IMG/VR virus record: IMGVR_UViG_3300047323_000428
Location: 21,208-85,207 of that record
Source of the DNA: a virus
Taxonomy: Duplodnaviria > Heunggongvirae > Uroviricota > Caudoviricetes
Reading direction: 5' to 3' (one strand)
DNA: 64,000 nt
Shown here: in pieces, positions 13,970-56,559 of the stretch
Position numbering within the stretch: position 1 is the stretch's first letter
How the letters are laid out: every line of letters starts with the position of its first letter
The notes under the pieces: model-generated
What the model was told of the DNA's origin: nothing
What the model saw: only the letters and a program-made list of their open reading frames with translations
Databases searched by the model: none
Program-made: the position numbers and the translations under genes

Positions 13970-14216
13970 GATGCGGCACTCGCCGCCGGACCCAAACTAT
14001 AAGAACCCCGCTTACCCGTCCCCACTCCCAAGTTCCCAAGAACCCAGTCCCAAGGTGGAAGTGTGCGGTGGTGCGGTTGGTGTGTGGAAGTATAAGGAGC
14101 CGAGGCCTAGGCCTACCGGGAAATATAAGGGAGCGCTTTTGGCGGTCTGGAACGAGGAAGGGAGGGCCATCGCACCGCGCGAGATTTTCTAGGACTTCGC
14201 TCTCTCGCGGTTTCGA

Positions 14217-15143: not shown

Positions 15144-15989
15144 TTACGCGTTAAACATCGCTTGCAGCTTTTGCGCTGCTTTCGATTCCGTAAACGTCAT
15201 TGCATCGTCTTTTTTCGACTTCGCAACGTTGCAGACATTCAGAAAGCGCATTGCTTGTCGCGTGCTGCTTGCTTGCGTGCTTGCGGTTGACGGTGCGCAA
15301 TCTTTGTATGCGCGCACCGCTTCGGTTTGCATCGCTTCGTCAAACACGATTGCACGCGAGAGCGCACGTTGTGAACCGCGGTTCGAGAGCGAATGCAGCG
15401 AAACAAGATTCTGCATGATCGAGCGCGTGTAACCGTCAAAAACCGAAGTCATACCGGTTGCGAGTGCGAAAAGCGACTTGCGGATTTTTTGCGCTGCGTA
15501 AATCGCAACGTAATCGTGCGCTTTGTCGTCTGCGATTGCGTAAGCGGTTGCAAGCGATTCAAAATCAACTTCGAGTTCTACGCACTTTTCAATTGCGATC
15601 AGCGCATTGCGACCGCTCAGCGCGTTGAGTTCTGCGAGCATGTTCTTTGCGAAGTTCGCAGACGGTGCGTTGTCAATGCGCACTTGAACCGATTCGAGCA
15701 AGAGCGCTTGCGCTGCTTCTGCTTTTGCGCGCAACTCTTCTGCGCTCAGCACAACCGGTTGCGCTTCGTCTGCTTGCGCTTCGTTCGCTTCGGTTTCGAC
15801 TGCAAGCGTTTCGACTGCTTGCGCTTCGTCTGCGCTGAGCGCTTCGTCTGCTTGCGCTGCGAGTTCAGCGTTTTGCGCTGCGATCATTGCTGCTTCTGCT
15901 TGCGCTGCTTTCTCTGCTTTCGTGAGTCGCTTCGTCATTTTCGTTTCTCGCTTAGTGTGTTGTTTTGTTTTCGTCGCTGCACCGTGCAT
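15144..15989 (-). CDS. Hypothetical protein (about 280 aa; Ala/Glu/Gln-rich coiled-coil N-terminal part and a C-terminal domain) in the compositional island
   Basis: First ATG at 15987-15989; an alternative ATG lies at 15938. Strong GCA/GAA/CAA/AAA codon bias unlike the surrounding genome. Confidence 0.5.
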   Translation of the reverse strand: MHGAATKTKQHTKRETKMTKRLTKAEKAAQAEAAMIAAQNAELAAQADEALSADEAQAVETLAVETEANEAQADEAQPVVLSAEELRAKAEAAQALLLESVQVRIDNAPSANFAKNMLAELNALSGRNALIAIEKCVELEVDFESLATAYAIADDKAHDYVAIYAAQKIRKSLFALATGMTSVFDGYTRSIMQNLVSLHSLSNRGSQRALSRAIVFDEAMQTEAVRAYKDCAPSTASTQASSTRQAMRFLNVCNVAKSKKDDAMTFTESKAAQKLQAMFNA

Positions 15990-16112: not shown

Positions 16113-16360
16113 CTGCAACGCGAAACGGAGTGACGAACGAAACGAACGAAAGCGAGAATCGACCGAAGACTGAAACCGAGCGACGCGAGACGCGACGCGA
16201 CGAACCGAAAAACGGTGCGCTCGAACCGAGCGACGGAAAAACGGAACGCGCGACGCGACGAAGCGAAAAACGGATCGCACGCAGTGAGACTGCGCGACAC
16301 GTGACGCTCGAACCGCGCGAGATGCGCGACGCACGCGCTGCGCCGGCGGCCGGCGCATGA
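16113..16360 (+). ncRNA. Candidate non-coding transcript with an extreme T-depleted composition
   Basis: About 250 nt with very few T on the plus strand (CGA/ACG/GAA-type repeats), directly downstream of the 16076-16105 promoter. It ends at the GCGCCGGCGGCCGGCGC palindrome (16340-16356). It contains no convincing ORF. Confidence 0.3.
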
Positions 16361-16396
16361 GGGAGACGGCCTAGGAGGTTTGCCTGCCGCCTTGGT

Positions 16397-16469
16397 CAAA
16401 ACTCCCTATCAGTGTCGGGCGAGGCTCCCGTTCAAATTCCCTATCAGTGTCGGCGACGGCTCCCGTTCC
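16397..16469. repeat. Two tandem iteron-like units (U1 16397-16433, U2 16434-16469)
   Basis: CAAAACTCCCTATCAGTGTCGGGCGAGGCTCCCGTTC and AAATTCCCTATCAGTGTCGGCGACGGCTCCCGTTCC. The conserved core is GTGTCGG-N6-GCTCCCGTTYC. Confidence 0.75.
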
Positions 16470-16554
16470 TTTCCATTCCACTCCACACCCCTAGGCCGAT
16501 CCCCTAGGCCGTGAGCAACAGCACCAAAAGGCGCCACACGGGCGCCCTTCTCCC

Positions 16555-17180: not shown

Positions 17181-17408
17181 CGCGTTTCTCGCGTTGTTTG
17201 AAAGTGATGCTATTGTCTCGACCCGCGAGAGGGACAACTGTGGCAATCGTTCGAGGCGGCTCGGGAGCTGGTCAGGCTCTCTCCCTACCGCGGCCTAGGC
17301 GTTTTCCCAAGGCCTTCCCCTGCTCTCCTCTCTCCTACCGGCCTAGGCCGTCTCCCATAGGCGGCTACCCAAGGGGATCGGCCTAAAAGGGGCCGAGGAC
17401 AATCCAAT

Positions 17409-17446
17409 CAAAACTCCGTAGGGTGTCGGCCGCGGCTCCCGTTTCC
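17409..17446. repeat. Iteron-like unit U3 (CAAAACTCCGTAGGGTGTCGGCCGCGGCTCCCGTTTCC)
   Basis: Same GTGTCGG...GCTCCCGTTTCC core as U1 and U2. Confidence 0.75.
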
Positions 17447-17483
17447 ACGGGGATCGGCCTAGGCCTCGCAGGTGCGCGGGGCG

Positions 17484-17522
17484 AAAAATTTGGAATGGGT
17501 GTCGGCACCGGCTGCCGTTTCC
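17484..17522. repeat. Iteron-like unit U4 (AAAAATTTGGAATGGGTGTCGGCACCGGCTGCCGTTTCC)
   Basis: Core conserved. Its hairpin is CGGCA-N5-TGCCG. Confidence 0.7.
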
Positions 17523-17548
17523 TCGACGCTCTCCCCACGCACGCGCAC

Positions 17549-17590: not shown

Positions 17591-17809
17591 TAAACTGCAT
17601 CCGATGAGGAACCCTACGGTGAAGAACCAAGTCCCCCCCTCCCCCCACAGACCTATAATCAGTGAGAGCAGGGGAGAACTCGATCCCACCAAGGGCACAC
17701 ATCGGAGGCTATCCGCGTATGGCAACCCAACAGGCAAGAACCAAGTCCCCCAGAAGAAGAAGCGACTCCCGACGCCAAGTGCTCGTCGGCAAACAATGTG
17801 CGGGAATCA

Positions 17810-18010: not shown

Positions 18011-18253
18011 CTACCAGCTCCCATACTCTCCATACGCCTCCCGTGCGGGATCGTATAGGTCTTCCTCCGTCACTCCCGAGAACGTCGCGTTCATCATCCA
18101 TTCCAGATCCACGTGGTCGAACTCCGAGAGCCTGAATCTCCTACAAAGCGTCTCGTCCAGCACCATCACCTCTCTGCCTGTCTTGGTGTCGTGGGCGGTG
18201 TAGTAGCGGCTGCCGTCCTTTGTGTGCCCGCTGTCGTCGAGCTTGAGCTCCAT
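18011..18253 (-). CDS. Small protein (80 aa), paralog-array member with a C-terminal YGEYGSW
   Basis: The ATG overlaps the upstream stop (TGGTAGATGG junction). The C-terminal tail is ...EAYGEYGSW. Confidence 0.55.
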   Translation of the reverse strand: MELKLDDSGHTKDGSRYYTAHDTKTGREVMVLDETLCRRFRLSEFDHVDLEWMMNATFSGVTEEDLYDPAREAYGEYGSW

Positions 18254-18556
18254 CTACCATACCTCTCCATACCCCTGTGCTCGATCCCCTCTCCCCTTGA
18301 GCACCGTCGTCTTCACCTTCTTCCCGATGTTGTTGAACTGGAACTGTAGGTCGTAGATGTTGAGCTCCATGAAGCCGGGGAACTGCATTCCGACGATGGA
18401 TTCGCCTGCGTCGAGTGCGTCACGAACTGCCGCGTAGACCGTGAGTTGGTTTTCGTAGACCGAGCCGGTGCCTATGTCGCCGGTGCTGTCGCTCACTACG
18501 GTGACAGGGTAACGGCCGGCTGCGCTTTTCTTGTCTGTGATCTTGATGGTTGCCAT
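18254..18556 (-). CDS. Small protein (100 aa), paralog-array member with a C-terminal GYGEVW
   Basis: The ATG overlaps the upstream stop (TGGTAATGG). The C-terminus is ...RAQGYGEVW. Confidence 0.55.
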   Translation of the reverse strand: MATIKITDKKSAAGRYPVTVVSDSTGDIGTGSVYENQLTVYAAVRDALDAGESIVGMQFPGFMELNIYDLQFQFNNIGKKVKTTVLKGRGDRAQGYGEVW

Positions 18557-18798
18557 TACCAGACCTCTCCATACCCGGTTACTTCGTCCTTCTCGGTGTA
18601 GGGCGTGTCGTCCGGGTCGGTCAGGGCAAACCTAAGCCATTTGGTGTCGAAGCTGCCGAGCTTCTGGCCTACCTGGATTGGTGCTGGGTATTTGCTCTGG
18701 AGCAGGGTCGTCGGCATGGTGTAGTCCTCGAACGTCTTGGAGATGTGAATCTCGGTCCAGGTGTCGTTGTGTGCCAGGACGCTCACGTCGATTAGCAT
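18556..18798 (-). CDS. Small protein (80 aa), paralog-array member with a C-terminal GYGEVW
   Basis: The C-terminus is ...VTGYGEVW. It is the first gene after the 18.8-19.2 kb non-coding region. Confidence 0.55.
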   Translation of the reverse strand: MLIDVSVLAHNDTWTEIHISKTFEDYTMPTTLLQSKYPAPIQVGQKLGSFDTKWLRFALTDPDDTPYTEKDEVTGYGEVW

Positions 18799-19146
18799 AG
18801 GCCTTCTCTCTGCGGTTTCATTGCTTGATTGTCTCGTCTGCGGTGTGGGGTTGCTGCGGGAATCGTCGATTGGCTCTGAGCGCTTTAGAGACGTTTTGAG
18901 CGATCGGGGCGCGCGCTGCTGTCTGCGTGCGTCTTGAGCTTGGTGGCGCGCTTGTAGCGCGTTTTGACGCGTCCCTGAAGCGGTTGTGTCGCTCGGTTCG
19001 TCTGCGCTCGGTGCGCTTAGTCGGGTGTCAGAGTTGGCTTATACTTCTGTCGCAGATACGGCCAACTATAAGAGTGGAAATTCCCTTATAGATCAATGGC
19101 TTAGGAGTGATGGCCAAGGATCTCGGCCTAGGGCCGGTAACTCGAC

Positions 19147-19174
19147 AAGAAAAGGGGCTCCGAAGAGCCCTTTT
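19147..19174 (-). terminator. Rho-independent terminator after mazF (GGGGCTC-cgaa-GAGCCC flanked by an A-run and a T-run; bidirectional)
   Basis: Stem-loop at 19154-19170, with AAGAAAA upstream and TTTT downstream. Confidence 0.75.
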
Positions 19175-19177
19175 GCC

Positions 19178-19516
19178 TCACAGTTGGAGAAATGCGCGGA
19201 TCGCATATTTGGCGGCCGCGAGCTCGTCCTCTGTCGCCTGCTCGCCCTTGAAATCCACCTTTCGCTCGGTGTAACTCCAGGTGCTTATCTGATCGACCTG
19301 GGCCACACCTGGGCGAGCCAGGCTGTCGATCGGGATTTCCGTCTCCCACCCTCTCACGGTGGAGGTGATGGGCAGCCCAGTGAAGCGGCTGGTGATCTGA
19401 TTTACAACAAAGCTGGAGATCACCAACACCGCACGATAGCCGTCCTGCTCGTTACCTTTGGACGGGCCGATGTGCAGTCTCACGATATCGCCCGCTTCCG
19501 GAATGCCGTTCTTCAT
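19178..19516 (-). CDS. mazF: MazF/PemK-family endoribonuclease toxin
   Basis: PEAGDIVRL...GNEQDGYRAVLVISS...LPITS profile typical of Kid/PemK/MazF. Lies 3 nt downstream of the antitoxin. Confidence 0.8.
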   Translation of the reverse strand: MKNGIPEAGDIVRLHIGPSKGNEQDGYRAVLVISSFVVNQITSRFTGLPITSTVRGWETEIPIDSLARPGVAQVDQISTWSYTERKVDFKGEQATEDELAAAKYAIRAFLQL

Positions 19517-19519
19517 GTG

Positions 19520-19807
19520 TCACCAATTGTCGTTTCGGTCAGGATCGTCGGGGCCGCCCGTTTCGTTGCCGACGGGATCGCCCCAGTCGATTGTTTCGTG
19601 CGGAACGAGCTTGCCCTCCTCATGCTGCTGAATCAGGCGCTCAAGCGAGAATCGCCTGATCGCGGTGTGCGGCCGCACCTGTAGGCGCCCGTCTTCGACC
19701 ACCACATCCACTTCTTGGCCCTCTTGCAGAGCCACCTCGTCGGCCAAGCTGGCCGGAATACGCACTGCGAGGCTGTTGCCCCAGCGCTTTACTGTCTGAA
19801 TGGCCAT
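19520..19807 (-). CDS. mazE: MazE/AbrB-type (SpoVT/AbrB domain) antitoxin
   Basis: VKRWGNSLAVRIPASLADEVALQEGQEVDVVVEDGRLQVRP is a SpoVT/AbrB swapped-hairpin domain. Sits upstream of mazF. Confidence 0.8.
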   Translation of the reverse strand: MAIQTVKRWGNSLAVRIPASLADEVALQEGQEVDVVVEDGRLQVRPHTAIRRFSLERLIQQHEEGKLVPHETIDWGDPVGNETGGPDDPDRNDNW

Positions 19808-19922: not shown

Positions 19923-20153
19923 CTACCAGGTGCCCATGTCCGCGTAGGCCGGCTCGGGTCTCAGGATGGGCACCTGGTAGTCCGACAACAGGCTATAGGC
20001 CACGTTGTCGACGAACTGGAAGCTCTCGCCGGGCAACAACTGCATCTGGGCGTAGATGCGCGCGGTTTGCATGTTGGGCGTGCGGCAGGTGTTCTCCAAC
20101 CACGCCCGGTAGCCGCCCTTCATGCTTCGGGCGATTTCGTCGCATTCGGTCAT
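19923..20153 (-). CDS. Hypothetical protein (76 aa; C-terminus ...ADMGTW)
   Basis: ORF coupled (ATGA) with the next gene. Confidence 0.45.
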   Translation of the reverse strand: MTECDEIARSMKGGYRAWLENTCRTPNMQTARIYAQMQLLPGESFQFVDNVAYSLLSDYQVPILRPEPAYADMGTW

Positions 20154-21360: not shown

Positions 21361-21789
21361 TCAGTGGGCGGCGGGCGGCTGCTTGCCGAAGATGCCGCCG
21401 AGAAGCGAAGCGACTTGCGCCTGGATCTCTTCCTGAGAGCCGCGCATCACAAACACGCCTTCGGGCAGACGCGCGGGCTGCTCGCTCATCTCCTTCAGTT
21501 CGGCGATGCCCGCGTGGTCGGGCTTTTCGGTCCAGGACTTGAGGTATTGCTCGCGGCTCATCGAGGGCTTCGGCTGGGCCTTCTTCGGCAGCTCGACGAC
21601 GATGGTGCCGGACGGCAGCAGGTGGGTCATGTCCTGATCGGCGACCTGGCCGAGCGTCTCGGCCACCGCACGGCGGGTGTCCAGGCCCAGCGTGCAGCCG
21701 TCGGCCAGCGCGTTGACGAGTTTATGCACGTGGTGCTGGATGCGATCGAGTGTTTCCATCTTGGCAAGCGTGGTGAGAATCTGATTCAT
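21361..21789 (-). CDS. Hypothetical protein (142 aa)
   Basis: Clean ATG ORF. Confidence 0.45.
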   Translation of the reverse strand: MNQILTTLAKMETLDRIQHHVHKLVNALADGCTLGLDTRRAVAETLGQVADQDMTHLLPSGTIVVELPKKAQPKPSMSREQYLKSWTEKPDHAGIAELKEMSEQPARLPEGVFVMRGSQEEIQAQVASLLGGIFGKQPPAAH

Positions 21790-21894
21790 AGTGTGTTGCT
21801 CCTTGTCTTGTGCGCTTCGTTGTGCGCGTTGTTTCGATGAATGAATTGTCGCAACCGGTGCGCGGGGTTTGTGCGCCGCCGGTGCGGTTCCCGG

Positions 21895-22215
21895 TTAGTT
21901 ACCCGCTTCGGCCGTAAAGACCCACCAGTTGCCCTCTTCCTTCACCGAGCCGTAGGCGACCGCGTCCTGCATGTTGGTGAAGGGGCCGATCACCTCGAAG
22001 CCTTCGAGGATCGGGTCGCCGCGGACCAAGAAGGTGTGGCCGTCGGGATCTTGGATGCCGCCTTCGGGCACCATGACCTCGACGATCTCGGAGGGCTTCA
22101 GGCTCACCTGCGCCATGTAGGCGTCGAGGGCGTCGCCGTGCTCCATCGGCGCGCTGAATCGGAATCCGTCCGTGAAACGGCCCGTCACCACCACAAACAA
22201 TCCGCCTTTACTCAT
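21895..22215 (-). CDS. Hypothetical protein (106 aa)
   Basis: ATG at 22213-22215 with a GAGGAA ribosome-binding site. This choice overlaps the upstream gene by only 8 nt, whereas the longer listed N-terminus overlaps it by about 100 nt. Confidence 0.45.
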   Translation of the reverse strand: MSKGGLFVVVTGRFTDGFRFSAPMEHGDALDAYMAQVSLKPSEIVEVMVPEGGIQDPDGHTFLVRGDPILEGFEVIGPFTNMQDAVAYGSVKEEGNWWVFTAEAGN

Positions 22216-22474
22216 TGCCGTCTTCCTCTTCCTCGTCAACCACCTTGCACTCGGACTGCTTCCAATGATTGCCGCCCTCGTCCGCAACCATGATGGTGTC
22301 GCCACCTTGCACGTCCTCCGCCTGAATGGGGCGCTGGTTGTCCCAATCGACTTTCGTGGTGCCGGCGTAAATGGGCGAGCCGTCGTCCTCGAACCCGTCG
22401 ATGAGAGCGATCGCCGGAAGGACGTCGGCCGTGCCGATGACCTTCAGCCCATTGGGCGCGTAAAGCTGCTTCAT
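22208..22474 (-). CDS. Hypothetical acidic protein (88 aa)
   Basis: ATG at 22472-22474, coupled (ATGA) to the upstream gene. Confidence 0.45.
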   Translation of the reverse strand: MKQLYAPNGLKVIGTADVLPAIALIDGFEDDGSPIYAGTTKVDWDNQRPIQAEDVQGGDTIMVADEGGNHWKQSECKVVDEEEEDGNE

Positions 22475-22719
22475 GACGTCTCTCCTTGATCCAAAAGGTT
22501 GCGTTCGAGGTTGATCCACTCACACAGGTGGAATTCACGAAGCCAGGCGGGGTGCTCCGCCCAATCGTCGCCCGCCGGGCCGCTGAAATAGATCCCGGCG
22601 CCGCCGCCATCGGTAATGCCCGCGATGGTCTGCAAATGCAGGCACGCCGCGTCCAGATCAGCCATCGTTGCGGCCGCGCTGATCGCGTCTTCGGTGATTG
22701 CGCAAAGGTTGGTAGTCAC
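22471..22719 (-). CDS. Hypothetical protein (82 aa, GTG start)
   Basis: The ORF starts at a GTG. A PDM-like word TAGTCACTTGAC overlaps that start. Confidence 0.35.
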   Translation of the reverse strand: MTTNLCAITEDAISAAATMADLDAACLHLQTIAGITDGGGAGIYFSGPAGDDWAEHPAWLREFHLCEWINLERNLLDQGETS

Positions 22720-22789: not shown

Positions 22790-22807
22790 TAATCAGTTTT
22801 GACTGTT
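22790..22807 (-). promoter_or_regulatory. PDM copy (TAATCAGTTTTGACTGTT)
   Basis: Lies 70 nt upstream of the 22719 start in a 340-bp non-coding gap. Confidence 0.75.
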
Positions 22808-22976
22808 GCCGCAAGCCCAATTTTGCATCGTTGTTCGCACGAAACACGCGCATTTAGGCCGCGCTATGCGAGCGTTTTAGCGCGTTGGTGTGCGATAGGT
22901 ATGCTGCGCACGTATCTCAGCATTGACTAACGCAAGATGCGCACACCTCGCTTCTGGCCTAGGCCGCGAGCAGACG

Positions 22977-23061: not shown

Positions 23062-23439
23062 CTACCAAGCGGCCCCTGGCGTGACTGGCTTATCCGAGCG
23101 CGAGGCAGGCAGTGCGGGCTTGATGCCCATCGCCTTCACGGTAGCCCGCATCTCCTCGTCCGATCGCAGCAGGCTCGGGGCGACGCGCCAAGTCTTGGGC
23201 AGGCGCTTGCCGCTCACGTCCACCTCCGTGCAGTTGATGCTCTTGGTGTTGATCTTGTCGATCACCACGTTCACGAGGTGGCCGTATTTCGACACGAACA
23301 TCGCCCGCTGGCCGACACGGAACTTCGAGCCCGCCATCACCTGCTTTTGCGTCTGGCGTTGGCGCAAGATGCCGACGATCGCGTTGTTGAGCTCCATCAG
23401 CGTTTCGGTCGAGAGGACGTTGAGCTTGGCGTGATCCAT
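23062..23439 (-). CDS. Hypothetical protein (125 aa; C-terminus ...TPGAAW)
   Basis: ATG at 23437-23439 (M32 of the listed ORF). Confidence 0.45.
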   Translation of the reverse strand: MDHAKLNVLSTETLMELNNAIVGILRQRQTQKQVMAGSKFRVGQRAMFVSKYGHLVNVVIDKINTKSINCTEVDVSGKRLPKTWRVAPSLLRSDEEMRATVKAMGIKPALPASRSDKPVTPGAAW

Positions 23440-23539
23440 GATTCTTTCCTGAAAAATGAATGGTGGTTCAATCGGGGGAGCGCTCGCGCGGTGCGAACGC
23501 TCACCGGATTGGAGGGGCGCGCAGCCCCTCACACCCGAA

Positions 23540-24472: not shown

Positions 24473-24907
24473 AGGTTAGTGTGTATCGCAGCAAGTGTTA
24501 GTCTGACGTGCGATTCGAGGACAGTGAACAGTCACCGCTGAGTCCCCCGAACCGCTTCGTTTCTTGCTGTATCGCGTTGTTTGCTGCGATGAGTGAATAT
24601 TAAAGACTGACTGTTGGAGTGTGGTCGGGCACCGGCGAGGAGTTGCCAGGCGGAAAACGCTGTATGAATGTGCATGCCGGCGTGCGCGAATAGCACGTGG
24701 CGCCAGGGGTGTCTGCGGGTATCGGCTAGGCCGGTGGCGGTGGACGTTGGGAGAGATGGAGAGGCCTAGGGGCTCGGCCTAGGCCACTCACCTAGGCCGT
24801 GGCGCCAGGGCGCGCGAGGAAGTGGCGAGGCGTTGGCTTGGGAGTGGCGAGGGACATGGCATGGCAGCGCCGTGGGGTAACGCCAACAGGTAAAGCGCCC
24901 GCACACC

Positions 24908-24948: not shown

Positions 24949-25130
24949 TCACAGGGCTTGTAGAGGCCGTTGATGGCGTTGTCGATCGCCTCGCGCCAGT
25001 CTTTGCCGTAGGCCACGCATCGACCGACTTCGGGCACGTGAAACGTGACCCAGTGCCGGTTTCGGTCGCGGTCGAATTCGGGGAAGCTGTGGAGCACGAA
25101 GTCCAGGCGCGGGGTGTCGTAGAGATTCAT
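24945..25130 (-). CDS. HicB-like (UPF0150) antitoxin-fold small protein
   Basis: HVPEVGRCVAYGKDWREAIDNAINGL resembles the HicB/UPF0150 core. The ATG at 25128-25130 overlaps the upstream stop. Confidence 0.35.
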   Translation of the reverse strand: MNLYDTPRLDFVLHSFPEFDRDRNRHWVTFHVPEVGRCVAYGKDWREAIDNAINGLYKPCD

Positions 25131-25591
25131 CACCACGCCCCGACGTCGTCGTCCACGTCAGTCGTGGGCTTATTCGGATCGGGCGGCTTGGGCGGCTCTA
25201 CCGGCGCGAGAGTGTTGCCTACCTCGTGCAGCACCTCCTCGCCCGTCTCCAGATCCACCTCCAGCTCGCTCTCGGTCCACTTGGCGATGAACGCGGTGTA
25301 GAAGTCGAGGGCATCCTTCTCGTTGGAGAAGGTCTTGCCGTCATCGACCGGGTCCGTGCGCAGCCGGCCATCGCTCGCGTAGTTGCCGACGGTCAAGATG
25401 AAAAGTGGCCACGTGTCCGAAAAGCTGCTGTCGGCGTTGGGCACGCGACCATTCCACTCGAGGATCACCCGGACCTTGCCGTTGTCGAACTGCTTGAGCG
25501 TCGTGTAGGACTCGTCCGCCTGCTTTTCCTTCCAGGCCGCGAGGCTGATCTTCTCGCCGTCGCGGTCGTAAAAACTGATCTTGGGCATCAC
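25130..25591 (-). CDS. Hypothetical protein (153 aa; C-terminus ...DDDVGAW)
   Basis: ORF coupled to its neighbours. Confidence 0.5.
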   Translation of the reverse strand: MMPKISFYDRDGEKISLAAWKEKQADESYTTLKQFDNGKVRVILEWNGRVPNADSSFSDTWPLFILTVGNYASDGRLRTDPVDDGKTFSNEKDALDFYTAFIAKWTESELEVDLETGEEVLHEVGNTLAPVEPPKPPDPNKPTTDVDDDVGAW

Positions 25592-26626: not shown

Positions 26627-26840
26627 CGACGATCTCCTTCATCAAGCGCACCGCCTCATCGAACGACGGCGCATCGGTTTTGTGGGGGCCGAGCACGACT
26701 TCGAACGTGCGGCCCTTGCAGGCGTAGCGGATTTGGCGCTCTTCCACCATGTCGGCGAACCAGCGCCAGAGGTCGGCGTCGGCCTTGTTGGCGTTCGCGC
26801 GGGCGTTGAGGCGAATGTTGTCGAAGTGGGCGGCGGTCAC
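26604..26840 (-). CDS. Hypothetical protein (about 78 aa)
   Basis: GTG at 26838-26840 overlapping the upstream stop (GTGA). The Arg-rich N-terminus of the listed ORF is rejected. Confidence 0.4.
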   Translation of the reverse strand: MTAAHFDNIRLNARANANKADADLWRWFADMVEERQIRYACKGRTFEVVLGPHKTDAPSFDEAVRLMKEIVDVERLAA

Positions 26841-27103
26841 CAGATCACCTCCGCGGTTTCGACGGCATCGGCCTCGACGTAGACCTTGCGGTCGGTGGCT
26901 TGAAAGTGTTCGGACGGACCGGCTGACGGGCTCATGCAAGTCACCTTCTCCCAGACCTGAAGAATCACGACCAGGCCGTCGACTTTGACCACCGCCCCGT
27001 GAATCTCCTGACCGGAGCGCGTGACGATGTGAATCGTGTAGGGATTGCCCTCGTCCCGTGAGCCGTGCTCGGCGTCCGCAATGGCGTAACGAAGCGCGCT
27101 CAT
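26837..27103 (-). CDS. Hypothetical protein (88 aa; C-terminus ...AEVIW)
   Basis: ATG at 27101-27103 (M9 of the listed ORF), coupled (ATGA) to the upstream gene. Confidence 0.45.
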   Translation of the reverse strand: MSALRYAIADAEHGSRDEGNPYTIHIVTRSGQEIHGAVVKVDGLVVILQVWEKVTCMSPSAGPSEHFQATDRKVYVEADAVETAEVIW

Positions 27104-33558: not shown

Positions 33559-33972
33559 TCAGGGGTTTTGTTGGGAATCGTCGCTCCCGCTCATGCTTGC
33601 CAGATACTTGCCGTGATCGAACGCCTTCTTCATGGCGCGCAACTGGGCGAGCGTGGGCTTGTCCTTCGAGTCGTGCCAGGAGATGGCCGACAGCCACGAA
33701 CGCAGGCGAGCCTCATCGCGCGAATCCTTCACCTTCTGCGTGATCGGGTCGATACAACCAGAGGCGGCGCCGATAAAGTAGCCCGTCTCCCGGTTGGCGC
33801 GATGTTCGTTTCCCTTCGCATCTTTCAGGACGAACTGCGTGCGCGTCAGGCGATCGATCGTGAACAGCACATAACCGTGGTGGCGCGTTCGGTGCGCGAC
33901 TTCCTGACCGGGTCGAAGCGACTTCAGCCACTCGGCGCGTTCTTCTCTTTCATCCATCACCAGCTCCCCCAT
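33559..33972 (-). CDS. Hypothetical protein (137 aa)
   Basis: The ATG lies 16 nt inside the end of the upstream gene. Confidence 0.5.
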   Translation of the reverse strand: MGELVMDEREERAEWLKSLRPGQEVAHRTRHHGYVLFTIDRLTRTQFVLKDAKGNEHRANRETGYFIGAASGCIDPITQKVKDSRDEARLRSWLSAISWHDSKDKPTLAQLRAMKKAFDHGKYLASMSGSDDSQQNP

Positions 33973-34607
33973 TGTTCGTGTGCGACAGTTGCGCCGCTTC
34001 GCTTGGCGTATTCGTCGGCCGATAGCGACCGTGCCTGTGCCTTCAGGTTCTCACGCAACTGCCGATCACCTTCCGGCTCGTTGAGCACCATGTTCGCGGG
34101 CGTGAAGCAACCAACGAAGCCAGGGTAATAGTCGTCGGTGTTGCACGTGCCGAACTCGATCACAACCTTGCCCGTCTCAACGTCGACCAGCTCCACGACG
34201 TCATGATTTTTATTGGCGCACTTCCGGCCAATCACCTTCACGGGCGCGAAGGTGTTCTTGATCGTGGTGTCGCGCGTCACCCAAACGGCGCTCAACGAGG
34301 ACCGGTAGCCGTCGTTGGGATCTTCCATCGCCGTGTAGCACTGGTTGTTCAGGACGAAGGAGAACGCGGTTGCGTGCTCGGCGCCCCAGCCCTTGCTGCA
34401 AGCGACGTTCTCCGAGCCGACGCCGGTGAGCACAAAGCTCTTGCCGATGAAGAAGTCGAAGTCCACTTCCTTGACGTTGCGGCCCGAGAACTCGCCGGCG
34501 GGCTTGCCATCGTCTTCAGGCAGCTCCTCCGGGAGTTTGACCTCGCTGTTATAGCCGGCAAGCTCCATAAACTCGTCGGCAAGCTCGTCCAGGTTCAGCT
34601 TGGGCAC
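33957..34607 (-). CDS. Hypothetical protein (216 aa; C-terminus ...HEQWGSW)
   Basis: ATG ORF. Confidence 0.5.
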   Translation of the reverse strand: MPKLNLDELADEFMELAGYNSEVKLPEELPEDDGKPAGEFSGRNVKEVDFDFFIGKSFVLTGVGSENVACSKGWGAEHATAFSFVLNNQCYTAMEDPNDGYRSSLSAVWVTRDTTIKNTFAPVKVIGRKCANKNHDVVELVDVETGKVVIEFGTCNTDDYYPGFVGCFTPANMVLNEPEGDRQLRENLKAQARSLSADEYAKRSGATVAHEQWGSW

Positions 34608-41169: not shown

Positions 41170-41187
41170 TAGTCACTTTTGACTGTT
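41170..41187 (-). promoter_or_regulatory. PDM copy (TAGTCACTTTTGACTGTT)
   Basis: Immediately after the nrdA stop and 42 nt upstream of the 41127 start. Confidence 0.8.
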
Positions 41188-44045: not shown

Positions 44046-44058
44046 ATTGCTCTCCGGG

Positions 44059-44897: not shown

Positions 44898-45154
44898 TCC
44901 ATCGCCTTTTGAAGCGCTGCCACAGCAGCAGTGAACAATTCCGCCTGCCAACCGCGGCCTCGGTAAACGTCAACGCCCAACACCGTGCGGCGCGGACGCA
45001 TCACGCCGAGCACGAAGGAGCGCTCCTTTACATTCACCGTAACCGCGCCATGCGGACTTGTGCCAACAGCCGGCTTGTGGATCGTCACGCAATCCGTGTC
45101 GTAGCGTCGAGCCTCCCACCCTTCCGGCAGGTTGATTGGCAGTTCCATCACCAT
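44894..45154 (-). CDS. Hypothetical protein (86 aa)
   Basis: ATG at 45152-45154 (M65 of the listed ORF), overlapping the upstream gene by 7 nt. Confidence 0.4.
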   Translation of the reverse strand: MVMELPINLPEGWEARRYDTDCVTIHKPAVGTSPHGAVTVNVKERSFVLGVMRPRRTVLGVDVYRGRGWQAELFTAAVAALQKAME

Positions 45155-45579
45155 GATCCGAACTCCGCGTATTGGGTCATCTTCTCGGCGTTGGCCTCGA
45201 GCTCGTCCTGGCGCTTCGCCTGCGCGGCGAGCTCCTCCTTCGCCTCCATCACGTCGGCGAGAATTGTGCGCATGTAGACAGGGAAGCCCGCGCCGAACAC
45301 TTCGCGGCATTGCTTCTCCGGCACTTCGAGGAAGTGGAAGTCGCACGGGTCGCGCGGCTTGAACACGATGATCGTGCCGTGCTTCTTGCCCACATACGCG
45401 CGCACCGGCTCGAATTCCTCGCCACCGATGAAGGGCTTGATGCTGAATTGGTCGTTCGTCTTTGTGGTGAGCTTTTGCGGGGCGCTCACCAAAAATCCGC
45501 TAGGCGCCTCCTTGAACGCGTCCGCGTATTGTTCGACCAGCTTGGCGAGTTCGGTTTGCTCGCCGGTTGCTTCTGCCAT
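45148..45579 (-). CDS. Hypothetical protein (143 aa; C-terminus ...YAEFGSW)
   Basis: ATG at 45577-45579 with a strong GAGGAGG ribosome-binding site. The frame stays open a further 300 nt upstream, so an N-terminal extension (GTG at 45885) cannot be excluded. Confidence 0.5.
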   Translation of the reverse strand: MAEATGEQTELAKLVEQYADAFKEAPSGFLVSAPQKLTTKTNDQFSIKPFIGGEEFEPVRAYVGKKHGTIIVFKPRDPCDFHFLEVPEKQCREVFGAGFPVYMRTILADVMEAKEELAAQAKRQDELEANAEKMTQYAEFGSW

Positions 45580-45838
45580 ATCGACCTCCTCGTCGAGTTT
45601 TGCCTTCGGTCGGGGCCGAGGCTTGGTTCCGTTGCGATAGTGGAGCTCTTCCCGGTAGGCATCGGGCCCGCCGGGGAATGAGTCAGCCTCCCGACTGCTG
45701 AAGCCGGGAATGAGGGCGTCGGAGGCTAGAATCGCCCCCGCGCGCTTCGTGGAGACGGTGCGCTCCGAAGCGCGCGACCGTCCAAGAGGATCAGAGGGTT
45801 CGACCATGCTCAGTGACTTGCCAAAGAACGCGTCGCTG

Positions 45839-47791
45839 TTAAACGGAGCCACGTTCGGTTGCTCCTGAGACGGTCGTGACGCCACCGCTCTTTTCTGCCG
45901 TGATGACCGTGTCGACCCAGTCGGCGAGGCTGTTGTGGGAGATCACCAACACCGTGCCGCGCTCGCGTGCTTTCTTCTCCAGCACCGTCATCAGCCGCTC
46001 GAGGCCCGCCTCGTCGAGTGCGTGATCCACTTCGTCGGCGACATAGAGGTTGATCGGCTTCGTTGCGCGCGTCGCCACCATGTCCTGCAGCGCCATCGAC
46101 GCAGCAAGGCGTGCCTTGCGCTTCTCACCGCCCGACAGACCCGCGAACGACTTCGCACCCTTGTCGTTGGTGACTTCGATGTTGAACTTCTCCTTCAACT
46201 CGCCCTTCGCCGTCTTGGCGAGCGTGTTCCAGGTCGCGTGAATGTTGCCGTCGGCCAAGATGCCGAGATAGTCGCTCGTCTGGTCGTTGAGAATCGGCGT
46301 CACGGTGTCGAGAATGTGGGCGCGCACGCCGGCCGGTCCGTAGACCTTCGCCACCGTCTGCGCGATTTCGTTCTCGGTGACGGCCTTCTCCAGCGCCTTC
46401 TCAGCTTCTTCGAGCCGGCGCTTTATGTTTTCTTCCTTCACGCGCGCGGTGGCTTCGACCTTTTGCCAGGGGTTTTCAGCTTCCAGGTGCGCTTTCGCCG
46501 CATCCTTGATCGTGTTGATCTGCAAGCCGAGCGTCGTGCTATGCCGCGTGAGTGCGCGCACTTCGTTGAGGGTGTCGTTCAGATGCTTGTGCTCGCGCGC
46601 CACTTCGCTCACGTCAGTCATCGACGCTTCGAATTTCGTGGCGACGTCTTGCAGCGCTTTGAGTTCTTCCTGCGCGGTGCGAATGGCTTGTGCGATCGGC
46701 AGCAATCCCGCCTTCTGCTCGCTGATCGTTTTGACGCGCGCAGCCTTCGCAGCCTCCAAGTCGTGCTCGCAGTAGGTCTTGCCGCACTCACCGCACGGTT
46801 TGCCAATCTGCGATTCGATTTCGGCGAGCATCTTTTGCTGCGCTTCCAGCCCCTTCTTGCCACCGGCGAGCGAACCCATCGCGGTCGCAATCTCGCGCTC
46901 CTTCCTCGCCACCGCCGCCTTGTGAGCGTCGAGCGTCTTTTGTTCCGCCTTCTGCCCATCAAGCCGCGACTGACAACCTGCCACGCGCTTTTCGAGCGTG
47001 GCTTCGTCGGGCAGCTCGCCGCGCTTCTTGGTGTTTTCAACGATCTGGGCGTTGATCGGTGGGATCTTGGCAAGCTCGGCGCGCGCACGGTCCTTGCGCT
47101 GCGCTTCGAATAGCGCCTTTTGCTCCTCTGCAGCCTTCACTTCATCGCCCGCCACAGTGAGCGCGGCCACCTCACGGTCACGGTCGGCACGCGCAGCCTT
47201 CTCTGCAGCTTCGGCGGTGAGCGCACGCTTTCGCGCCTCCGCATAGGCTTCGGTCAGCACTTCGACGCCGGCCGCTTCCTCGATGAGCGTCTTGAGCGCC
47301 TTGTCGGTCATTCCAGGCAAATCTGGCATCTTCTCCTGGCCCGCATAGACGGCAGCGGCGAACACTTCTTTGGAGGCGCCGACGATCTTCTCGACCACCT
47401 TCTGCGTCTCCTTGTCGGTGCCCTTGCTCAGATCGACAGTCGGGCTGCCGGCGACAAGTTGCTTGACGATCAAGGCGTTCTTGATTTCCTTGCTCTTGCG
47501 ACCGCGCGAGATTTCGTAGGTGTCGTCACCGTCCTCGATCACAATGCTGACGTGGCAGTCCTTGCCGGCCGTGTCGTTGATAACGTCATCGCCCGAGACG
47601 CCACGCGCAGTTTCGCCGTAGAGCACCCAGAACAGCGCGTCGACGATGGACGATTTGCCCGCACCGTTGGACTTGGCTGACGGATCATCGAGGTTCGAGC
47701 CCTGAATGAGCAGCAGACCGCGGTTGTCCAGCTCCAGCTTGGCGGAGCCGATGGTCAGAAAGTTGCGTATGAAAAGCGATTTGACGTCCAT
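45839..47791 (-). CDS. SbcC/Rad50-like (gp46-like) recombination ATPase
   Basis: Walker A GAGKSS, a central coiled coil with a CxxC zinc hook (CGECGKTYC), ABC signature LSGGEKR and a D-loop ADEVD. Confidence 0.85.
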   Translation of the reverse strand: MDVKSLFIRNFLTIGSAKLELDNRGLLLIQGSNLDDPSAKSNGAGKSSIVDALFWVLYGETARGVSGDDVINDTAGKDCHVSIVIEDGDDTYEISRGRKSKEIKNALIVKQLVAGSPTVDLSKGTDKETQKVVEKIVGASKEVFAAAVYAGQEKMPDLPGMTDKALKTLIEEAAGVEVLTEAYAEARKRALTAEAAEKAARADRDREVAALTVAGDEVKAAEEQKALFEAQRKDRARAELAKIPPINAQIVENTKKRGELPDEATLEKRVAGCQSRLDGQKAEQKTLDAHKAAVARKEREIATAMGSLAGGKKGLEAQQKMLAEIESQIGKPCGECGKTYCEHDLEAAKAARVKTISEQKAGLLPIAQAIRTAQEELKALQDVATKFEASMTDVSEVAREHKHLNDTLNEVRALTRHSTTLGLQINTIKDAAKAHLEAENPWQKVEATARVKEENIKRRLEEAEKALEKAVTENEIAQTVAKVYGPAGVRAHILDTVTPILNDQTSDYLGILADGNIHATWNTLAKTAKGELKEKFNIEVTNDKGAKSFAGLSGGEKRKARLAASMALQDMVATRATKPINLYVADEVDHALDEAGLERLMTVLEKKARERGTVLVISHNSLADWVDTVITAEKSGGVTTVSGATERGSV

Positions 47792-50880: not shown

Positions 50881-51141
50881 TTAGGCCCACTCCGACTCGC
50901 CGTAGTGCTCTGCGCGCTCCAGCGCCTCAAGTTCGCGGTTAAGCTCCTCCATGCGCCGCTGCACCTTCATCGCGCGACGATGGGCCTTGCCGGTCTTACC
51001 AAGCGCCGGTTGCTTCTGCTCGCCGCTCATGATGACTAGCGGCGCTACCTTGCCCTTCGGCACGTAGTCAGGCACGACGTAGCGCAGCGCTTCCCTCTTA
51101 TTCCACCGCTCCTGCTCTCGATACATCAGAAACCTCCCCAA
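50881..51141 (-). CDS. Hypothetical protein (86 aa)
   Basis: ORF overlapping the upstream gene by 16 nt. Confidence 0.4.
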   Translation of the reverse strand: MGRFLMYREQERWNKREALRYVVPDYVPKGKVAPLVIMSGEQKQPALGKTGKAHRRAMKVQRRMEELNRELEALERAEHYGESEWA

Positions 51142-51506
51142 CCCATTTCGTCATAAACCTTCGCCTGCTCGGCCGCCTCGCGTTCAGCCTTGCGCTTCTC
51201 TTCCCGCTTCTCTGCCGTGTATTCGTCAGGCAGGAGGAACGTGTAATTCACGCACTCGGGGTTGTCGATGATTTGATCCAGCACCGCGGTGAGGAGCTCG
51301 TCGCCGAAGCTGACCTTCATTTCTGCATTCGGGTGCGCATCGACCACAAACTTGTCGACCAGCCAGCACATATAGGTAGGGCGCTCGGCAAGCAACACTC
51401 TTGGCGTCTTGCCCGCATATTTGCCGAACGGCAGCGGCGTGTCGAAATCGAGGCTCACGCGCCAGGTCTTGTTCTTGATGTTGACTTCGCTCACCACGAC
51501 CCCCAA
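51126..51506 (-). CDS. DUF3820-like protein (126 aa, TTG start)
   Basis: FGKYAGKTPRVLLAERPTYMCWL matches the DUF3820 FGK(Y/F)KG...Y..WL motif. Confidence 0.5.
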   Translation of the reverse strand: MGVVVSEVNIKNKTWRVSLDFDTPLPFGKYAGKTPRVLLAERPTYMCWLVDKFVVDAHPNAEMKVSFGDELLTAVLDQIIDNPECVNYTFLLPDEYTAEKREEKRKAEREAAEQAKVYDEMGWGGF

Positions 51507-51880
51507 TCAGCAGAAGGCGTGTAGGCGACGACCGGCTCGGGCATCGGCGTGTGGCCGTTGAGAGGCGTGCGGCCGCTGAGGATATCCGCGATGGCTTGCT
51601 CATCCTCGTCGAGCGCGGCGTCGGTGGTGACTTTCACCAGGAACGTCGGCGGATTCTTCGTCCAGTGCCGGAACCGCGCCGCGTCTTTCTTGTGCAGAGC
51701 GATCCACATGTCCAGCTCGTCGTTGACGTCCTGATCGAAGAACGCCTGGCTGCTGTCCTTTGCAACCTTGTCCCGTAGCCAGCAGCAATACTGCGGGTCA
51801 ATCTTCAGGACGTCGGCGATCTTCCTGCCCTTGAACTTGCCAAAATTGAGCGCGTCGCTTTTGCCGTTTCCAGTGCTCAC
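51491..51880 (-). CDS. DUF3820-like protein, tandem paralog (129 aa; C-terminus ...SADWGSW)
   Basis: FGKFKGRKIADVLKIDPQYCCWL. Confidence 0.5.
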   Translation of the reverse strand: MSTGNGKSDALNFGKFKGRKIADVLKIDPQYCCWLRDKVAKDSSQAFFDQDVNDELDMWIALHKKDAARFRHWTKNPPTFLVKVTTDAALDEDEQAIADILSGRTPLNGHTPMPEPVVAYTPSADWGSW

Positions 51881-56541: not shown

Positions 56542-56559
56542 TACTCAATTTTGACTGTT
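56542..56559 (-). promoter_or_regulatory. PDM copy (TACTCAATTTTGACTGTT)
   Basis: Immediately after the DnaE stop and 70 nt upstream of the 56470 start. Confidence 0.75.

What the first reader, a model, noticed from the sequence alone, without database searches (positions are those of the whole stretch)
18011..18798. Tandem array of three small paralogous genes with a conserved C-terminal (G)YGE(V/Y)(GS)W tail and near-identical stop/start junctions
The proteins of 80, 100 and 80 aa end in GYGEVW, GYGEVW and YGEYGSW. The gene junctions are GGGTATGGAGAGGT(A/C)TGGTA(G/A)ATGG, so each stop overlaps the next ATG. The body sequences have diverged while the tails have not. The array sits between the repeat-rich non-coding region and the mazEF module, which is a typical hot spot for accessory or anti-host genes.
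Basis: seen in the sequence. Interest (0 to 1): 0.55.

Follow-up and report, generated by a model that had tools for sequence, protein, structure and literature searches.

The report
Shared C-terminal tag on phage cassettes
Three small, mutually unrelated phage genes end in the same short tryptophan-ending peptide; about a tenth of this phage's proteins, and many proteins of its relatives, carry versions of it, so it is most likely a common docking tag for one still unknown partner protein.

Summary
The three minus-strand ORFs (80, 100 and 80 aa), their tails and the repeated junction are real. The genes are not detectable paralogues: BLASTP and profile-profile comparison find nothing shared except the tail.

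The tail is conserved as a peptide. In four sister phages it persists through synonymous changes and all three stop codons. It also sits on the last gene of an array, where nothing follows.

Between genomes about 97% identical, gene C is replaced by an unrelated gene that also ends GYGEVW. In other relatives the cassette order is permuted.

The tail belongs to a wider motif: aromatic-Gly-x(1-2)-Trp/Phe at the C-terminus, preceded by an acidic residue. It ends 9 of 83 genes in this window (0.02 expected). In related ~110-kb DnaE phages it ends roughly 20-30 unrelated protein families. Pseudomonas phage nickie carries a version with one extra residue.

AlphaFold2 models gene A as a small barrel followed by a disordered linker and the tail.

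Within the array, the tail codons (GGAGAGG) also lie 7 nt before the next ATG, where they can act as its ribosome-binding site.

Best reading: plug-in accessory cassettes that carry a clade-wide docking tag. The receptor is unknown, and a degradation signal is not excluded.

The parts
18556..18798 (-). Gene A, 80 aa. Small beta-barrel-like domain (residues 1-59), disordered acidic linker (61-74), tail GYGEVW.
   Evidence: ORF. GC3 0.80. AF2 pLDDT is 81-85 for residues 1-55 and 39-51 for residues 61-80. Weak cold-shock/S1/OB-like fold matches. Only 3 homologues, at 71-89% identity. Nothing further among 1.84e9 representatives.
18254..18556 (-). Gene B, 100 aa. Body unrelated to A and C. Tail GYGEVW.
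   Evidence: ORF. No Pfam, PHROG or NCBIfam hit. Only itself found in the 5.8e9-protein database. A 60%-identical orthologue lies in L348/L273 at a different array position.
18011..18253 (-). Gene C, 80 aa. Body unrelated to A and B. Tail YGEYGSW. Last gene of the array.
   Evidence: ORF. Orthologues in L347 end RYGEVW and in L274 end YQGYGSW. Replaced in L001 by an unrelated 93-aa gene ending QGYGEVW.
18554..18576 (-). Junction 1: tail codons GGG TAT GGA GAG GTC TGG (18559-18576), stop TAA (18556-18558) and the ATG of B (18554-18556), with a 1-nt overlap. GGAGAGG lies 7 nt before the ATG.
   Evidence: Sequence. Repeats. The junction and the first codons of the next gene are conserved in four phages.
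18251..18274 (-). Junction 2: tail codons GGG TAT GGA GAG GTA TGG (18257-18274), stop TAG (18254-18256) and the ATG of C (18251-18253), abutting. Homology with L001 breaks here.
18011..18034 (-). Tail of C: TAT GGA GAG TAT GGG AGC TGG TAG (YGEYGSW plus stop). No gene follows for about 760 nt.
19155..19170 (-). Terminator-like hairpin after mazF. About 350 nt of non-coding DNA then precede gene A, so the array looks like its own transcription unit.
   Evidence: The hairpin is conserved in L001 and L273.
19923..20153 (-). 76-aa gene ending YADMGTW, another carrier of the motif. No start codon follows closely.
   Evidence: Orthologues end YADMGTW, YADAGSW and YPDLGSW.
25130..25591 (-). 153-aa gene ending DDDVGAW.
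   Evidence: An orthologue in L179 ends GGVGAW.
33957..34607 (-). 216-aa gene downstream of RtcB, ending HEQWGSW.
   Evidence: An orthologue in L263 ends GWGSF.
45148..45885 (-). 245-aa gene just downstream of SbcC, ending YAEFGSW. This is the best-sampled carrier of the motif.
   Evidence: About 30 orthologues at 26-75% identity all end Y-x-[DE]-x(0-1)-[FY]-G-[STA]-W; one ends in F. FGSW is invariant in alignment A3. In the AF2 model the tail has pLDDT below 50.
51491..51880 (-). 129-aa gene (ExoX-like_C Pfam domain) ending SADWGSW.
   Evidence: Orthologues end W-G-[AST]-[FW].
51126..51506 (-). 126-aa neighbour and paralogue of the previous gene, ending YDEMGWGGF.

Best explanation
The three genes are independent plug-in cassettes in a hypervariable accessory array of a ~110-kb DnaE-encoding phage. 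Each encodes a different small folded domain, a flexible acidic linker and the same C-terminal peptide. That peptide is the local form (Y-G-E-V-W or Y-G-S-W) of a clade-wide short linear motif, aromatic-Gly-x(1-2)-Trp/Phe at the C-terminus. Many unrelated non-structural phage proteins carry this motif.

The most likely mechanism is that the tail is a ligand that docks all these proteins onto one shared receptor, either a phage or a host hub protein. The variable bodies would then be delivered to, or compete at, the same site.

Inside the array the tail codons have a second job. GGAGAGG (or GGGGAGG) lies 7 nt before the next start codon and can serve as its Shine-Dalgarno sequence, so any cassette placed downstream is translationally coupled. 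The repeated ~25-40-nt junction also offers homology for cassette replacement and reordering.

Shown: peptide-level conservation, the tail on unrelated bodies, enrichment at C-termini, a disordered linker, cassette swaps, and an SD-like sequence with suitable spacing.

Inferred: binding to a common receptor, actual use of the SD, and recombination at the junctions. The receptor is unknown.
For: 1. The bodies are unrelated. BLASTP aligns only the tails, and hhalign gives 0.2-38% with the tails trimmed.
2. Selection acts on the peptide. Nine A/B/C' tails in four phages keep GYGEVW while varying Gly, Tyr and Val codons and using all three stops. The last gene of each array keeps the tail with no gene downstream. 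Homologous C bodies carry YGEYGSW, YQGYGSW or RYGEVW, so the two tail forms are interchangeable.
3. The motif is clade-wide. About 30 orthologues of 45148-45885, at 26-75% identity, all end [FY]G[STA]W. Orthologues of 51491-51880 end WG[AST][FW].
4. Codon usage in 91 such tails is unconstrained. Gly codons are GGA 30, GGC 27, GGG 21 and GGT 13. Ser is AGY 23 and TCN 22. Stops are TGA 50, TAA 26 and TAG 15. An SD-like sequence is present in only 36 of 91.
5. With the tails removed, 104 unique carriers fall into 36 BLASTP clusters.
6. The motif is enriched at C-termini. It ends 9 of 83 window genes against 0.019 expected, and it ends none of 362 plus-strand ORFs. Twelve of 83 genes end in W (P = 3.5e-9).
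7. The architecture is typical of a short linear motif. The AF2 model of A has a folded core followed by residues 61-80 at pLDDT 39-51. The tail of 45148-45885 has pLDDT below 50.
8. Cassette behaviour. Homology between the window and L001 breaks at the B/C junction and resumes about 65 nt after the stop. The order is A-B-C' in L001, A-C'-B in L273/L348 and X-A-C'-C in L347.
9. The array proteins evolve faster than core genes. They are 51-71% identical where the helicase and SbcC are 93% and 89%.
10. The dual SD layer. Every internal junction carries GGAGAGG, GGGGAGG or GAGGAGG. The L347 A tail changed to GYEEAW yet keeps GAGGAGG. The only GAA Glu codon is in a last-in-array gene.
11. Pseudomonas phage nickie gp090, gp091 and gp108 carry the motif plus one extra residue.
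Against: - No receptor was identified. No clamp, PDZ, TPR or other known C-terminal-peptide-binding domain was found among the window genes scanned.
- Binding itself is untested.
- The motif regular expression was defined after seeing the data, although the excess is very large.
- Many of the tail instances are orthologues and not independent events.
- The GYGEVW form has only 13 distinct instances, all from close relatives, so the SD-layer statistics are weak.
- In nickie the aromatic residue is not the last one, so a free Trp carboxylate cannot be a universal requirement.
- Proteolytic targeting would produce the same sequence pattern.
Confidence: 0.55

Rival explanations
1. The tail is a C-terminal degradation signal. 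A host or phage protease or adaptor recognises it, so early and accessory proteins are short-lived. This is still receptor binding, but the outcome is turnover and not recruitment.
For: The sequence evidence is the same as for docking. All carriers are non-structural genes at 18-52 kb, and none lies in the portal/terminase module. MazE, a labile antitoxin, also ends in Trp, both in E. coli (Trp82, PMC4333400) and in this window (NDNW).
Against: The tail does not resemble the C-terminal degrons I know (ssrA-type LAA, MuA RRKKAI); this comparison is from memory and not tested. Carriers include widely conserved genes of the replication/recombination module (45148-45885 and 51491-51880), which are not obvious candidates for instability. 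No half-life data exist.
Confidence: 0.17
2. The conserved junction is only a nucleotide element, and the peptide is a by-product. The element would be a ribosome-binding site or translational-coupling signal, and/or a recombination boundary for cassette exchange.
For: GGAGAGG lies 7 nt before each next ATG. Stops overlap or abut the starts. Of 13 YG[DE]xW tails, 12 are SD-like, and their Gly codon is only GGA or GGG. The L347 A tail changed its peptide (GYEEAW) but kept GAGGAGG. The window/L001 homology break lies exactly at a junction. The first codons of the second gene (ATGGCAAC.ATCAAGAT) are shared by unrelated bodies.
Against: Last-in-array genes keep the peptide with nothing downstream. 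Synonymous sites vary while the peptide stays fixed. The related [FWY]G[STA]W tails use all Gly and Ser codon families and are SD-like in only 36 of 91 cases, with varied downstream DNA. This reading explains a second layer of constraint in the array, not the tail itself.
Confidence: 0.1
3. The tails mimic the C-terminal tail of MazE. They would bind a MazF/PemK-type toxin, either the neighbouring phage MazF or host toxins, and A, B and C would act as extra antitoxin-like decoys.
For: The array lies next to mazEF. E. coli MazE has ...IDWGEPKDKE followed by two residues, the last being Trp82; the V-W ending is from memory. Many tails read [DE]-W-G-x-[WF], and the array tails read E-V-W.
Against: mazEF is an insertion. 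It is absent at this place in L273 and L348, which keep the array and the tails. The motif is conserved in phages and genes unconnected with mazEF. A, B and C have no SpoVT/AbrB domain. The resemblance covers only 3-4 residues.
Confidence: 0.06
4. The array is an ordinary tandem duplication. The three genes are old paralogues whose bodies have diverged beyond recognition, and the tail is the only surviving remnant.
For: The genes are of similar small size and are tandemly arranged with a shared tail. There is a weak C versus C' profile match of 38% probability.
Against: No body similarity is detectable. The same tail ends much larger and clearly different proteins elsewhere in the genome and across the clade. 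That distribution requires independent acquisition or retention of the tail as a module.
Confidence: 0.05

Closest known systems
C-terminal hub-docking tails in phage replication and transcription: the T4 gp45 clamp binding the C-terminal tails of gp43, gp55 and gp33, and the bacterial beta-clamp-binding motif QL[SD]LF (from established knowledge)
   Same: Many otherwise unrelated proteins carry one short, flexible, often C-terminal hydrophobic/aromatic peptide that docks them onto a single hub. The carriers are non-structural proteins.
   Different: The sequence differs: there is no Gln and no Leu-x-Leu-Phe, and the motif here is aromatic-Gly-small-Trp/Phe. No clamp gene was seen in the window. 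The hub is unidentified.
SSB C-terminal tip (DDDIPF) and the acidic C-terminal tails of T7 gp2.5 and gp4 that end in Phe (from established knowledge)
   Same: An acidic, disordered linker ends in a hydrophobic residue, a turn and a terminal aromatic residue. DDDVGAW and GDEWGAF read much like DDDIPF.
   Different: In SSB one tail serves many partners. Here many proteins share one tail. The turn uses Gly-x in place of Pro, and Trp is preferred. The window also has a separate protein with a canonical DEDDLIPF end (35819-36241), so the two codes coexist.
Chemoreceptor C-terminal pentapeptide NWETF, which tethers CheR and CheB (from established knowledge)
   Same: An aromatic-x-x-aromatic C-terminal motif sits at the end of a flexible linker and acts purely as a tether. 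WGSW, WGAF and FGSW have the same spacing.
   Different: The biological context is different. The motif here has an invariant Gly at the third position from the end (the third-from-last codon, 91 of 91). No CheR-like fold was found.
MazE antitoxin C-terminal tail
   Same: It is a disordered acidic tail containing DWG and ending in Trp, and it lies next to the array.
   Different: A, B and C lack the SpoVT/AbrB domain. The tails persist in phages without mazEF.
Mosaic gene-boundary sequences and cassette arrays of phages (modular exchange at conserved junctions), and integron cassette arrays (from established knowledge)
   Same: Unrelated small genes are swapped and reordered at short conserved junctions in a single hot spot.
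   Different: The repeat is itself coding (the tail) and also carries the SD. No integrase or attC-like site was seen, and exchange by homologous recombination is only inferred.

Membership tests
Tandem paralogous gene family | Detectable homology between the bodies of the members | tested here: not met
   BLASTP aligns only the tails. hhalign of family profiles with tails trimmed gives probabilities of 0.2-38%.
Short linear motif (SLiM) / docking tail | Lies in a disordered region outside the folded domain | tested here: met
   In the AF2 model of A, residues 61-80 have pLDDT 39-51 against 81-85 for the core. The tail of 45148-45885 has pLDDT below 50. Both alignments are shallow.
Short linear motif (SLiM) / docking tail | Conserved in orthologues while the flanking sequence varies, with selection at the amino-acid level | tested here: met
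Short linear motif (SLiM) / docking tail | The same motif occurs on unrelated proteins | tested here: met
   36 BLASTP clusters among 104 carriers with the tails removed; some of the singleton clusters may be spurious ORFs.
Short linear motif (SLiM) / docking tail | Binds a defined partner domain | not testable with these tools
   No complex prediction or binding assay was available, and no candidate receptor domain was recognised.
Translationally coupled operon | Stop and start overlap or abut, and an SD-like sequence lies 5-9 nt upstream of the start inside the preceding gene | tested here: met
   TAATG and TAGATG junctions, with GGAGAGG 7 nt before each ATG. Actual coupling was not measured.
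MazE-type antitoxin | N-terminal SpoVT/AbrB (MazE_antitoxin) DNA-binding domain next to a MazF toxin gene | tested here: not met
   A, B and C have no Pfam hit. The neighbouring true MazE scores 3.8e-13.
SSB C-terminal tip motif | Acidic run followed by [IL]-P-F at the C-terminus | tested here: not met
   The tails have no Pro and end mostly in Trp. A separate window protein does match this motif.
Beta-clamp-binding motif | Q-L-[SD]-L-F-like consensus | tested here: not met
   By inspection of all tails. The consensus is taken from established knowledge.
Integron cassette array | Integron integrase plus attC recombination sites flanking each cassette | not tested
   No integrase appeared among the genes scanned near the array, but attC structure was not searched for.

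The most novel reading that the evidence does not exclude
A family of ~110-kb DnaE-encoding phages may use a private 'address tag', aromatic-Gly-x(1-2)-Trp/Phe at the C-terminus. About a tenth of the encoded proteins carry it. Carriers range from conserved proteins of the recombination/replication module to fast-evolving accessory cassettes, and all would converge on one receptor. In the hypervariable array the tag codons double as the ribosome-binding site of the next gene. Tag, translation signal and recombination homology would then be one compact module that lets new genes be plugged in and become functional at once.
Probability: 0.4. Interest if true: 0.75.

Novelty: new variant of a known kind. 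Interest (0 to 1): 0.6.

Why it matters
If the tail is a docking tag, it gives a single experimental handle on a whole set of phage proteins of unknown function. One peptide pull-down would reveal the hub on which roughly 10% of the proteome converges. Known examples of such hubs are few (clamps and SSB). Each ORFan cassette could then be classed as a client, competitor or inhibitor at that hub.

The dual use of the tag codons as the next gene's ribosome-binding site would also show how phages keep freshly shuffled accessory genes both expressed and targeted.

A cultured relative, Pseudomonas phage nickie, carries the motif, so the idea is directly testable.

Tried and rejected
- Family searches. 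Pfam, PHROGs and NCBIfam scans of A, B and C gave no hit.
- Deep protein searches. B is found only as itself. A has 3 close homologues. A profile of A finds nothing else among 1.84e9 representatives.
- Isolated phages. Megablast of the region found no match. tblastn of 45148-45885 and 51491-51880 gave no useful match.
- Tail-pattern scans. In IMG/VR the hit count was about what I estimated for chance, apart from the sister contig.
- Literature. A search for the motif strings and a conceptual search found nothing relevant.
- Receptor search. Pfam scans of about 40 window genes found no clamp or known peptide-binding domain.
- MazE-mimic idea. Downgraded because mazEF is absent from sister phages that keep the array.
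- Stop-codon recoding. Rejected because all three stop codons follow the motif.
- RNA elements. Rfam and tRNA scans around the array found nothing.
- Ideas from memory with no supporting gene context, left untested: RiPP or carrier-protein tails (LysW EDWGE, pearlin scaffolds) and VWA/MIDAS binding by the phage CobT-like protein.
Full report
**1. What is in the sequence**

On the minus strand, three ORFs run head to tail:
- A, 18798..18556, 80 aa, ending ...DEVTGYGEVW.
- B, 18556..18254, 100 aa, ending ...DRAQGYGEVW.
- C, 18253..18011, 80 aa, ending ...REAYGEYGSW.

All three look like real genes. GC at codon position 3 is 0.75-0.80 against about 0.40 at position 2, as in the rest of the genome. 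Against orthologues, dN/dS is 0.35-0.54.

The junctions read GGGTATGGAGAGGTCTGGTAATGG and GGGTATGGAGAGGTATGGTAGATGG. The first stop overlaps the next ATG by one base. The second abuts it. The 17-mer TATGGAGAGGTNTGGTA occurs only at these two places, against 0.06 expected, and a repeat search finds the same 20-nt pair.

mazE and mazF lie just upstream. They are followed by a terminator-like hairpin at 19170-19155 and about 350 nt of non-coding DNA before gene A. Tandem repeats lie further downstream at 15.2-16.5 kb. The observation therefore holds, with one small correction about the overlap.

**2. The genes are not paralogues**

Pairwise BLASTP aligns only the tails. I built small family alignments from relatives, trimmed the last eight residues and compared the profiles. 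The probabilities were 0.2-38%.

None of the three has a Pfam, PHROG or NCBIfam match. B is found only as itself among 5.8 billion proteins. A has three close homologues, and a profile of A finds nothing else among 1.84 billion cluster representatives.

**3. The genome**

The window is part of a ~110-kb phage. It encodes portal, terminase, a DnaE-type polymerase, RNR, SbcCD, RecA, RtcB, ThyX, CobS/CobT-like proteins and a sigma-like protein. Its DnaE is only 43-45% identical to those of Rhizobium, Stenotrophomonas and Pseudomonas phages. One relative lies on a contig of a Paraburkholderia MAG.

**4. Sister phages show that the tail is selected as a peptide**

Contig L002 is identical to the window. 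L001 is about 97% identical across the aligned flanks. In L001, homology breaks exactly at the B/C junction and resumes about 65 nt after the stop of C. In between lies an unrelated 93-aa gene, C', that ends QGYGEVW.

Array order differs between relatives:
- L273/L016 and L348: A-C'-B.
- L347: X-A-C'-C.
- L274: three genes ending HGYGDTW, KGYGEAW and YQGYGSW.

Across these arrays the tail codons vary synonymously (GGG/GGA, TAT/TAC, GGA/GGG, GTC/GTA/GTG) and all three stop codons are used, while the peptide stays the same. The last gene of every array keeps the tail although no gene follows it. Homologues of C end in YGEYGSW, YQGYGSW or RYGEVW, so the two tail forms can replace each other.

**5. 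The tail is not special to the array**

Listing the ends of all 83 heuristically called genes in the window shows that 12 end in Trp, against a Trp frequency of 1.46% (binomial P = 3.5e-9). Nine end in the motif hydrophobic/aromatic-G-[STAG]-[WF] or YG[DE]xW, against 0.019 expected from the internal frequency of the same pattern. None of 362 plus-strand ORFs of 50 aa or more ends this way.

The other carriers are:
- 19923-20153, ending YADMGTW.
- 25130-25591, ending DDDVGAW.
- 33957-34607, ending HEQWGSW.
- 45148-45885, ending YAEFGSW.
- 51491-51880, ending SADWGSW.
- 51126-51506, ending EMGWGGF.

All of them lie in the non-structural part of the genome.

I fetched about 200 loci from related viral contigs around RtcB, SbcC and the helicase. 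About 30 orthologues of 45148-45885, at only 26-75% identity, all end Y-x-[DE]-x(0-1)-[FY]-G-[STA]-W (one ends in F). Orthologues of 51491-51880 end W-G-[AST]-[FW].

Codon usage over 91 such tails shows no nucleotide-level constraint:

| Position | Codons used |
|---|---|
| Gly | GGA 30, GGC 27, GGG 21, GGT 13 |
| Ser | AGY 23, TCN 22 |
| Stop | TGA 50, TAA 26, TAG 15 |

Only 36 of the 91 tails contain an SD-like sequence.

With the tails removed, the 104 distinct carriers fall into 36 BLASTP clusters. Some singleton clusters may be spurious ORFs, so I take this as roughly 20-30 unrelated families. Other relatives have their own runs of tail-bearing small genes. L302 has five within 4.5 kb. 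L335 has three ending YGD[HA]W.

In the cultured Pseudomonas phage nickie, the two genes after SbcC end TDFGGWA and YDIGGWA, and gp108 ends GSGWGAFG. This is the same motif with one extra residue.

**6. Architecture**

AlphaFold2 was run on the four-sequence alignment of A. It gives a confident small beta-rich domain (residues 1-55, pLDDT 81-85) followed by residues 61-80 at pLDDT 39-51. The fold matches are weak and point to cold-shock/S1/OB-like barrels.

The model of 45148-45885 has a small barrel core and a long C-terminal helix, and its last residues have pLDDT below 50. It has no informative structural neighbour.

In every carrier, the residues before the tail are hydrophilic and acidic. 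A folded domain, a flexible linker and a short invariant terminal peptide is the usual layout of a docking motif.

**7. A second layer of constraint in the array**

In the GYGEVW form, the Gly codon before Glu is only GGA or GGG, and Glu is GAG. Every internal junction therefore reads GGAGAGG or GGGGAGG, 7 nt before the next ATG.

In L347 the A tail has changed to GYEEAW but still reads GAGGAGG. The only GAA Glu codon occurs in a last-in-array gene. The instances are few and closely related, so this evidence is suggestive only. It fits the tail codons doubling as the Shine-Dalgarno sequence of whichever cassette lies downstream.

The junction plus the first codons of the second gene (ATGGCAAC.ATCAAGAT, encoding MATIKI) are shared even when the gene bodies differ. 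Together with the breakpoint at the B/C junction, this suggests the repeated junction is where cassettes are exchanged. That step is inferred.

The array proteins are 51-71% identical between phages whose helicase and SbcC are 93% and 89% identical. They therefore evolve quickly, while the tail stays almost unchanged.

**8. Mechanism**

Best reading (confidence 0.55): the tail is a peptide ligand for one shared receptor, and A, B and C are interchangeable accessory modules that use it.

I could not identify the receptor. No clamp or known C-terminal-peptide-binding domain appeared in about 40 window genes scanned.

Rivals:
- A degradation signal gives the same sequence signature and cannot be separated from docking in silico (0.17).
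- A purely nucleotide-level element is contradicted by terminal cassettes and by the codon census. It survives only as the second layer described above (0.10).
- A MazE-like, MazF-binding tail is an attractive resemblance. E. coli MazE has ...IDWGEPKDKE followed by two residues, the last being Trp82. However, mazEF is an insertion that is missing from sister phages which keep the array (0.06).
- Ancient paralogy has no support (0.05).

**9. Comparison with known systems**

Functionally, the closest parallels are hub-docking tails. These include clamp-binding motifs and the T4 gp45-binding tails, the SSB C-terminal tip, the Phe-ending acidic tails of T7 gp2.5 and gp4, and the NWETF tether of chemoreceptors.

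The motif here matches none of their consensus sequences, so it is not a member of any of them. The array resembles mosaic gene-boundary exchange in phages, with the twist that the boundary repeat is itself coding.

I found no description of this motif, although the literature search was limited.

**10. Verdict**

The interesting feature is larger than the finding: a clade-wide C-terminal tag on many unrelated phage proteins, reused in the array as a ribosome-binding site and probably as a recombination junction.

- Novelty: new variant of a known kind.
- Interest: 0.6.

Noticed in passing
window, 19 sites (e.g. 2878-2886, 22799-22807, 41179-41187, 56551-56559); sigma-like gene at 61198-61845: AACAGTCAA occurs 19 times against 0.34 expected. 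Eighteen sites are on the coding (minus) strand, in gaps just after stop codons. The phage also encodes a Sigma70_r2-containing protein. This looks like a phage-specific promoter core. There is no copy directly upstream of the three-gene array.
   Followed up: partly
window 14104-14113, 16368-16510, 17292-17465, 19125-19132, 22956-22965, 24763-24798: The palindrome GGCCTAGG(CC) occurs 18 times against 0.76 expected. It is clustered in intergenic regions and flanks the array on both sides. It may be an operator or another protein-binding site.
   Followed up: partly
window 35819-36241 (-): A 140-aa protein ends in DEDDLIPF, a near-canonical SSB C-terminal tip. Its body has no SSB domain, no PDB relative and no relative in the fetched loci. 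It may be a mimic of the SSB tail on a non-SSB protein.
   Followed up: partly
window 19178-19807 (mazF, mazE); compare L273 and L348: mazEF is inserted between the stop of gene 19923-20153 and that gene's terminator. Sister phages L273 and L348 have the terminator directly after the ...GSW stop and no mazEF, so the toxin-antitoxin pair is a recent accessory insertion.
   Followed up: yes
L347 3-215: An extra cassette upstream of gene A ends ...PEYGEA followed by TAG, where relatives have TGG (Trp). This is a natural allele that has lost the terminal Trp, or else a sequencing polymorphism.
   Followed up: no
window 43542-44063, 23062-23532, 26837-27127, 19520-19807: Four more genes end in Trp without the full motif: TTDDAW, PGAAW, AEVIW and, for MazE, RNDNW. 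The first is conserved as TETTDAW in the Paraburkholderia MAG locus L349. A looser acidic-x-Trp ending may belong to the same system.
   Followed up: partly
L350 (Pseudomonas phage nickie NC_042091.1) 41459-42154, 42151-43029, 21773-22546: gp091, gp090 and gp108 end in TDFGGWA, YDIGGWA and GSGWGAFG. gp091 and gp090 sit directly after SbcC, like window gene 45148-45885, but show no BLAST similarity to it. This phage is a cultured model for testing the motif.
   Followed up: partly
window 15759-15858, 16191-16278, 16399-16468, 17421-17540, 17610-17751: The non-coding stretch downstream of the array holds several tandem and dispersed repeats: 15-nt x 6.5, 29-nt x 3, 35-nt x 2, a 44-nt pair and a 28-nt pair. 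No tRNA or Rfam match was found. Their function is unknown; an origin or a regulatory region is possible.
   Followed up: partly
window 49489-50040 (-); L348 6634-7161: An HNH/NUMOD4 homing-endonuclease gene lies between SbcD and a cell-wall hydrolase gene. A similar endonuclease sits at a different place in the relative L348, which suggests mobile endonuclease insertions.
   Followed up: no
L349 (NZ_JASGFN010000003.1, MAG Paraburkholderia sp., 450-kb contig): The only genome-collection relative of 45148-45885 lies on a large contig of a Paraburkholderia MAG, together with other tail-bearing genes. This hints at a Burkholderiales host or at an integrated or mis-binned phage.
   Followed up: no
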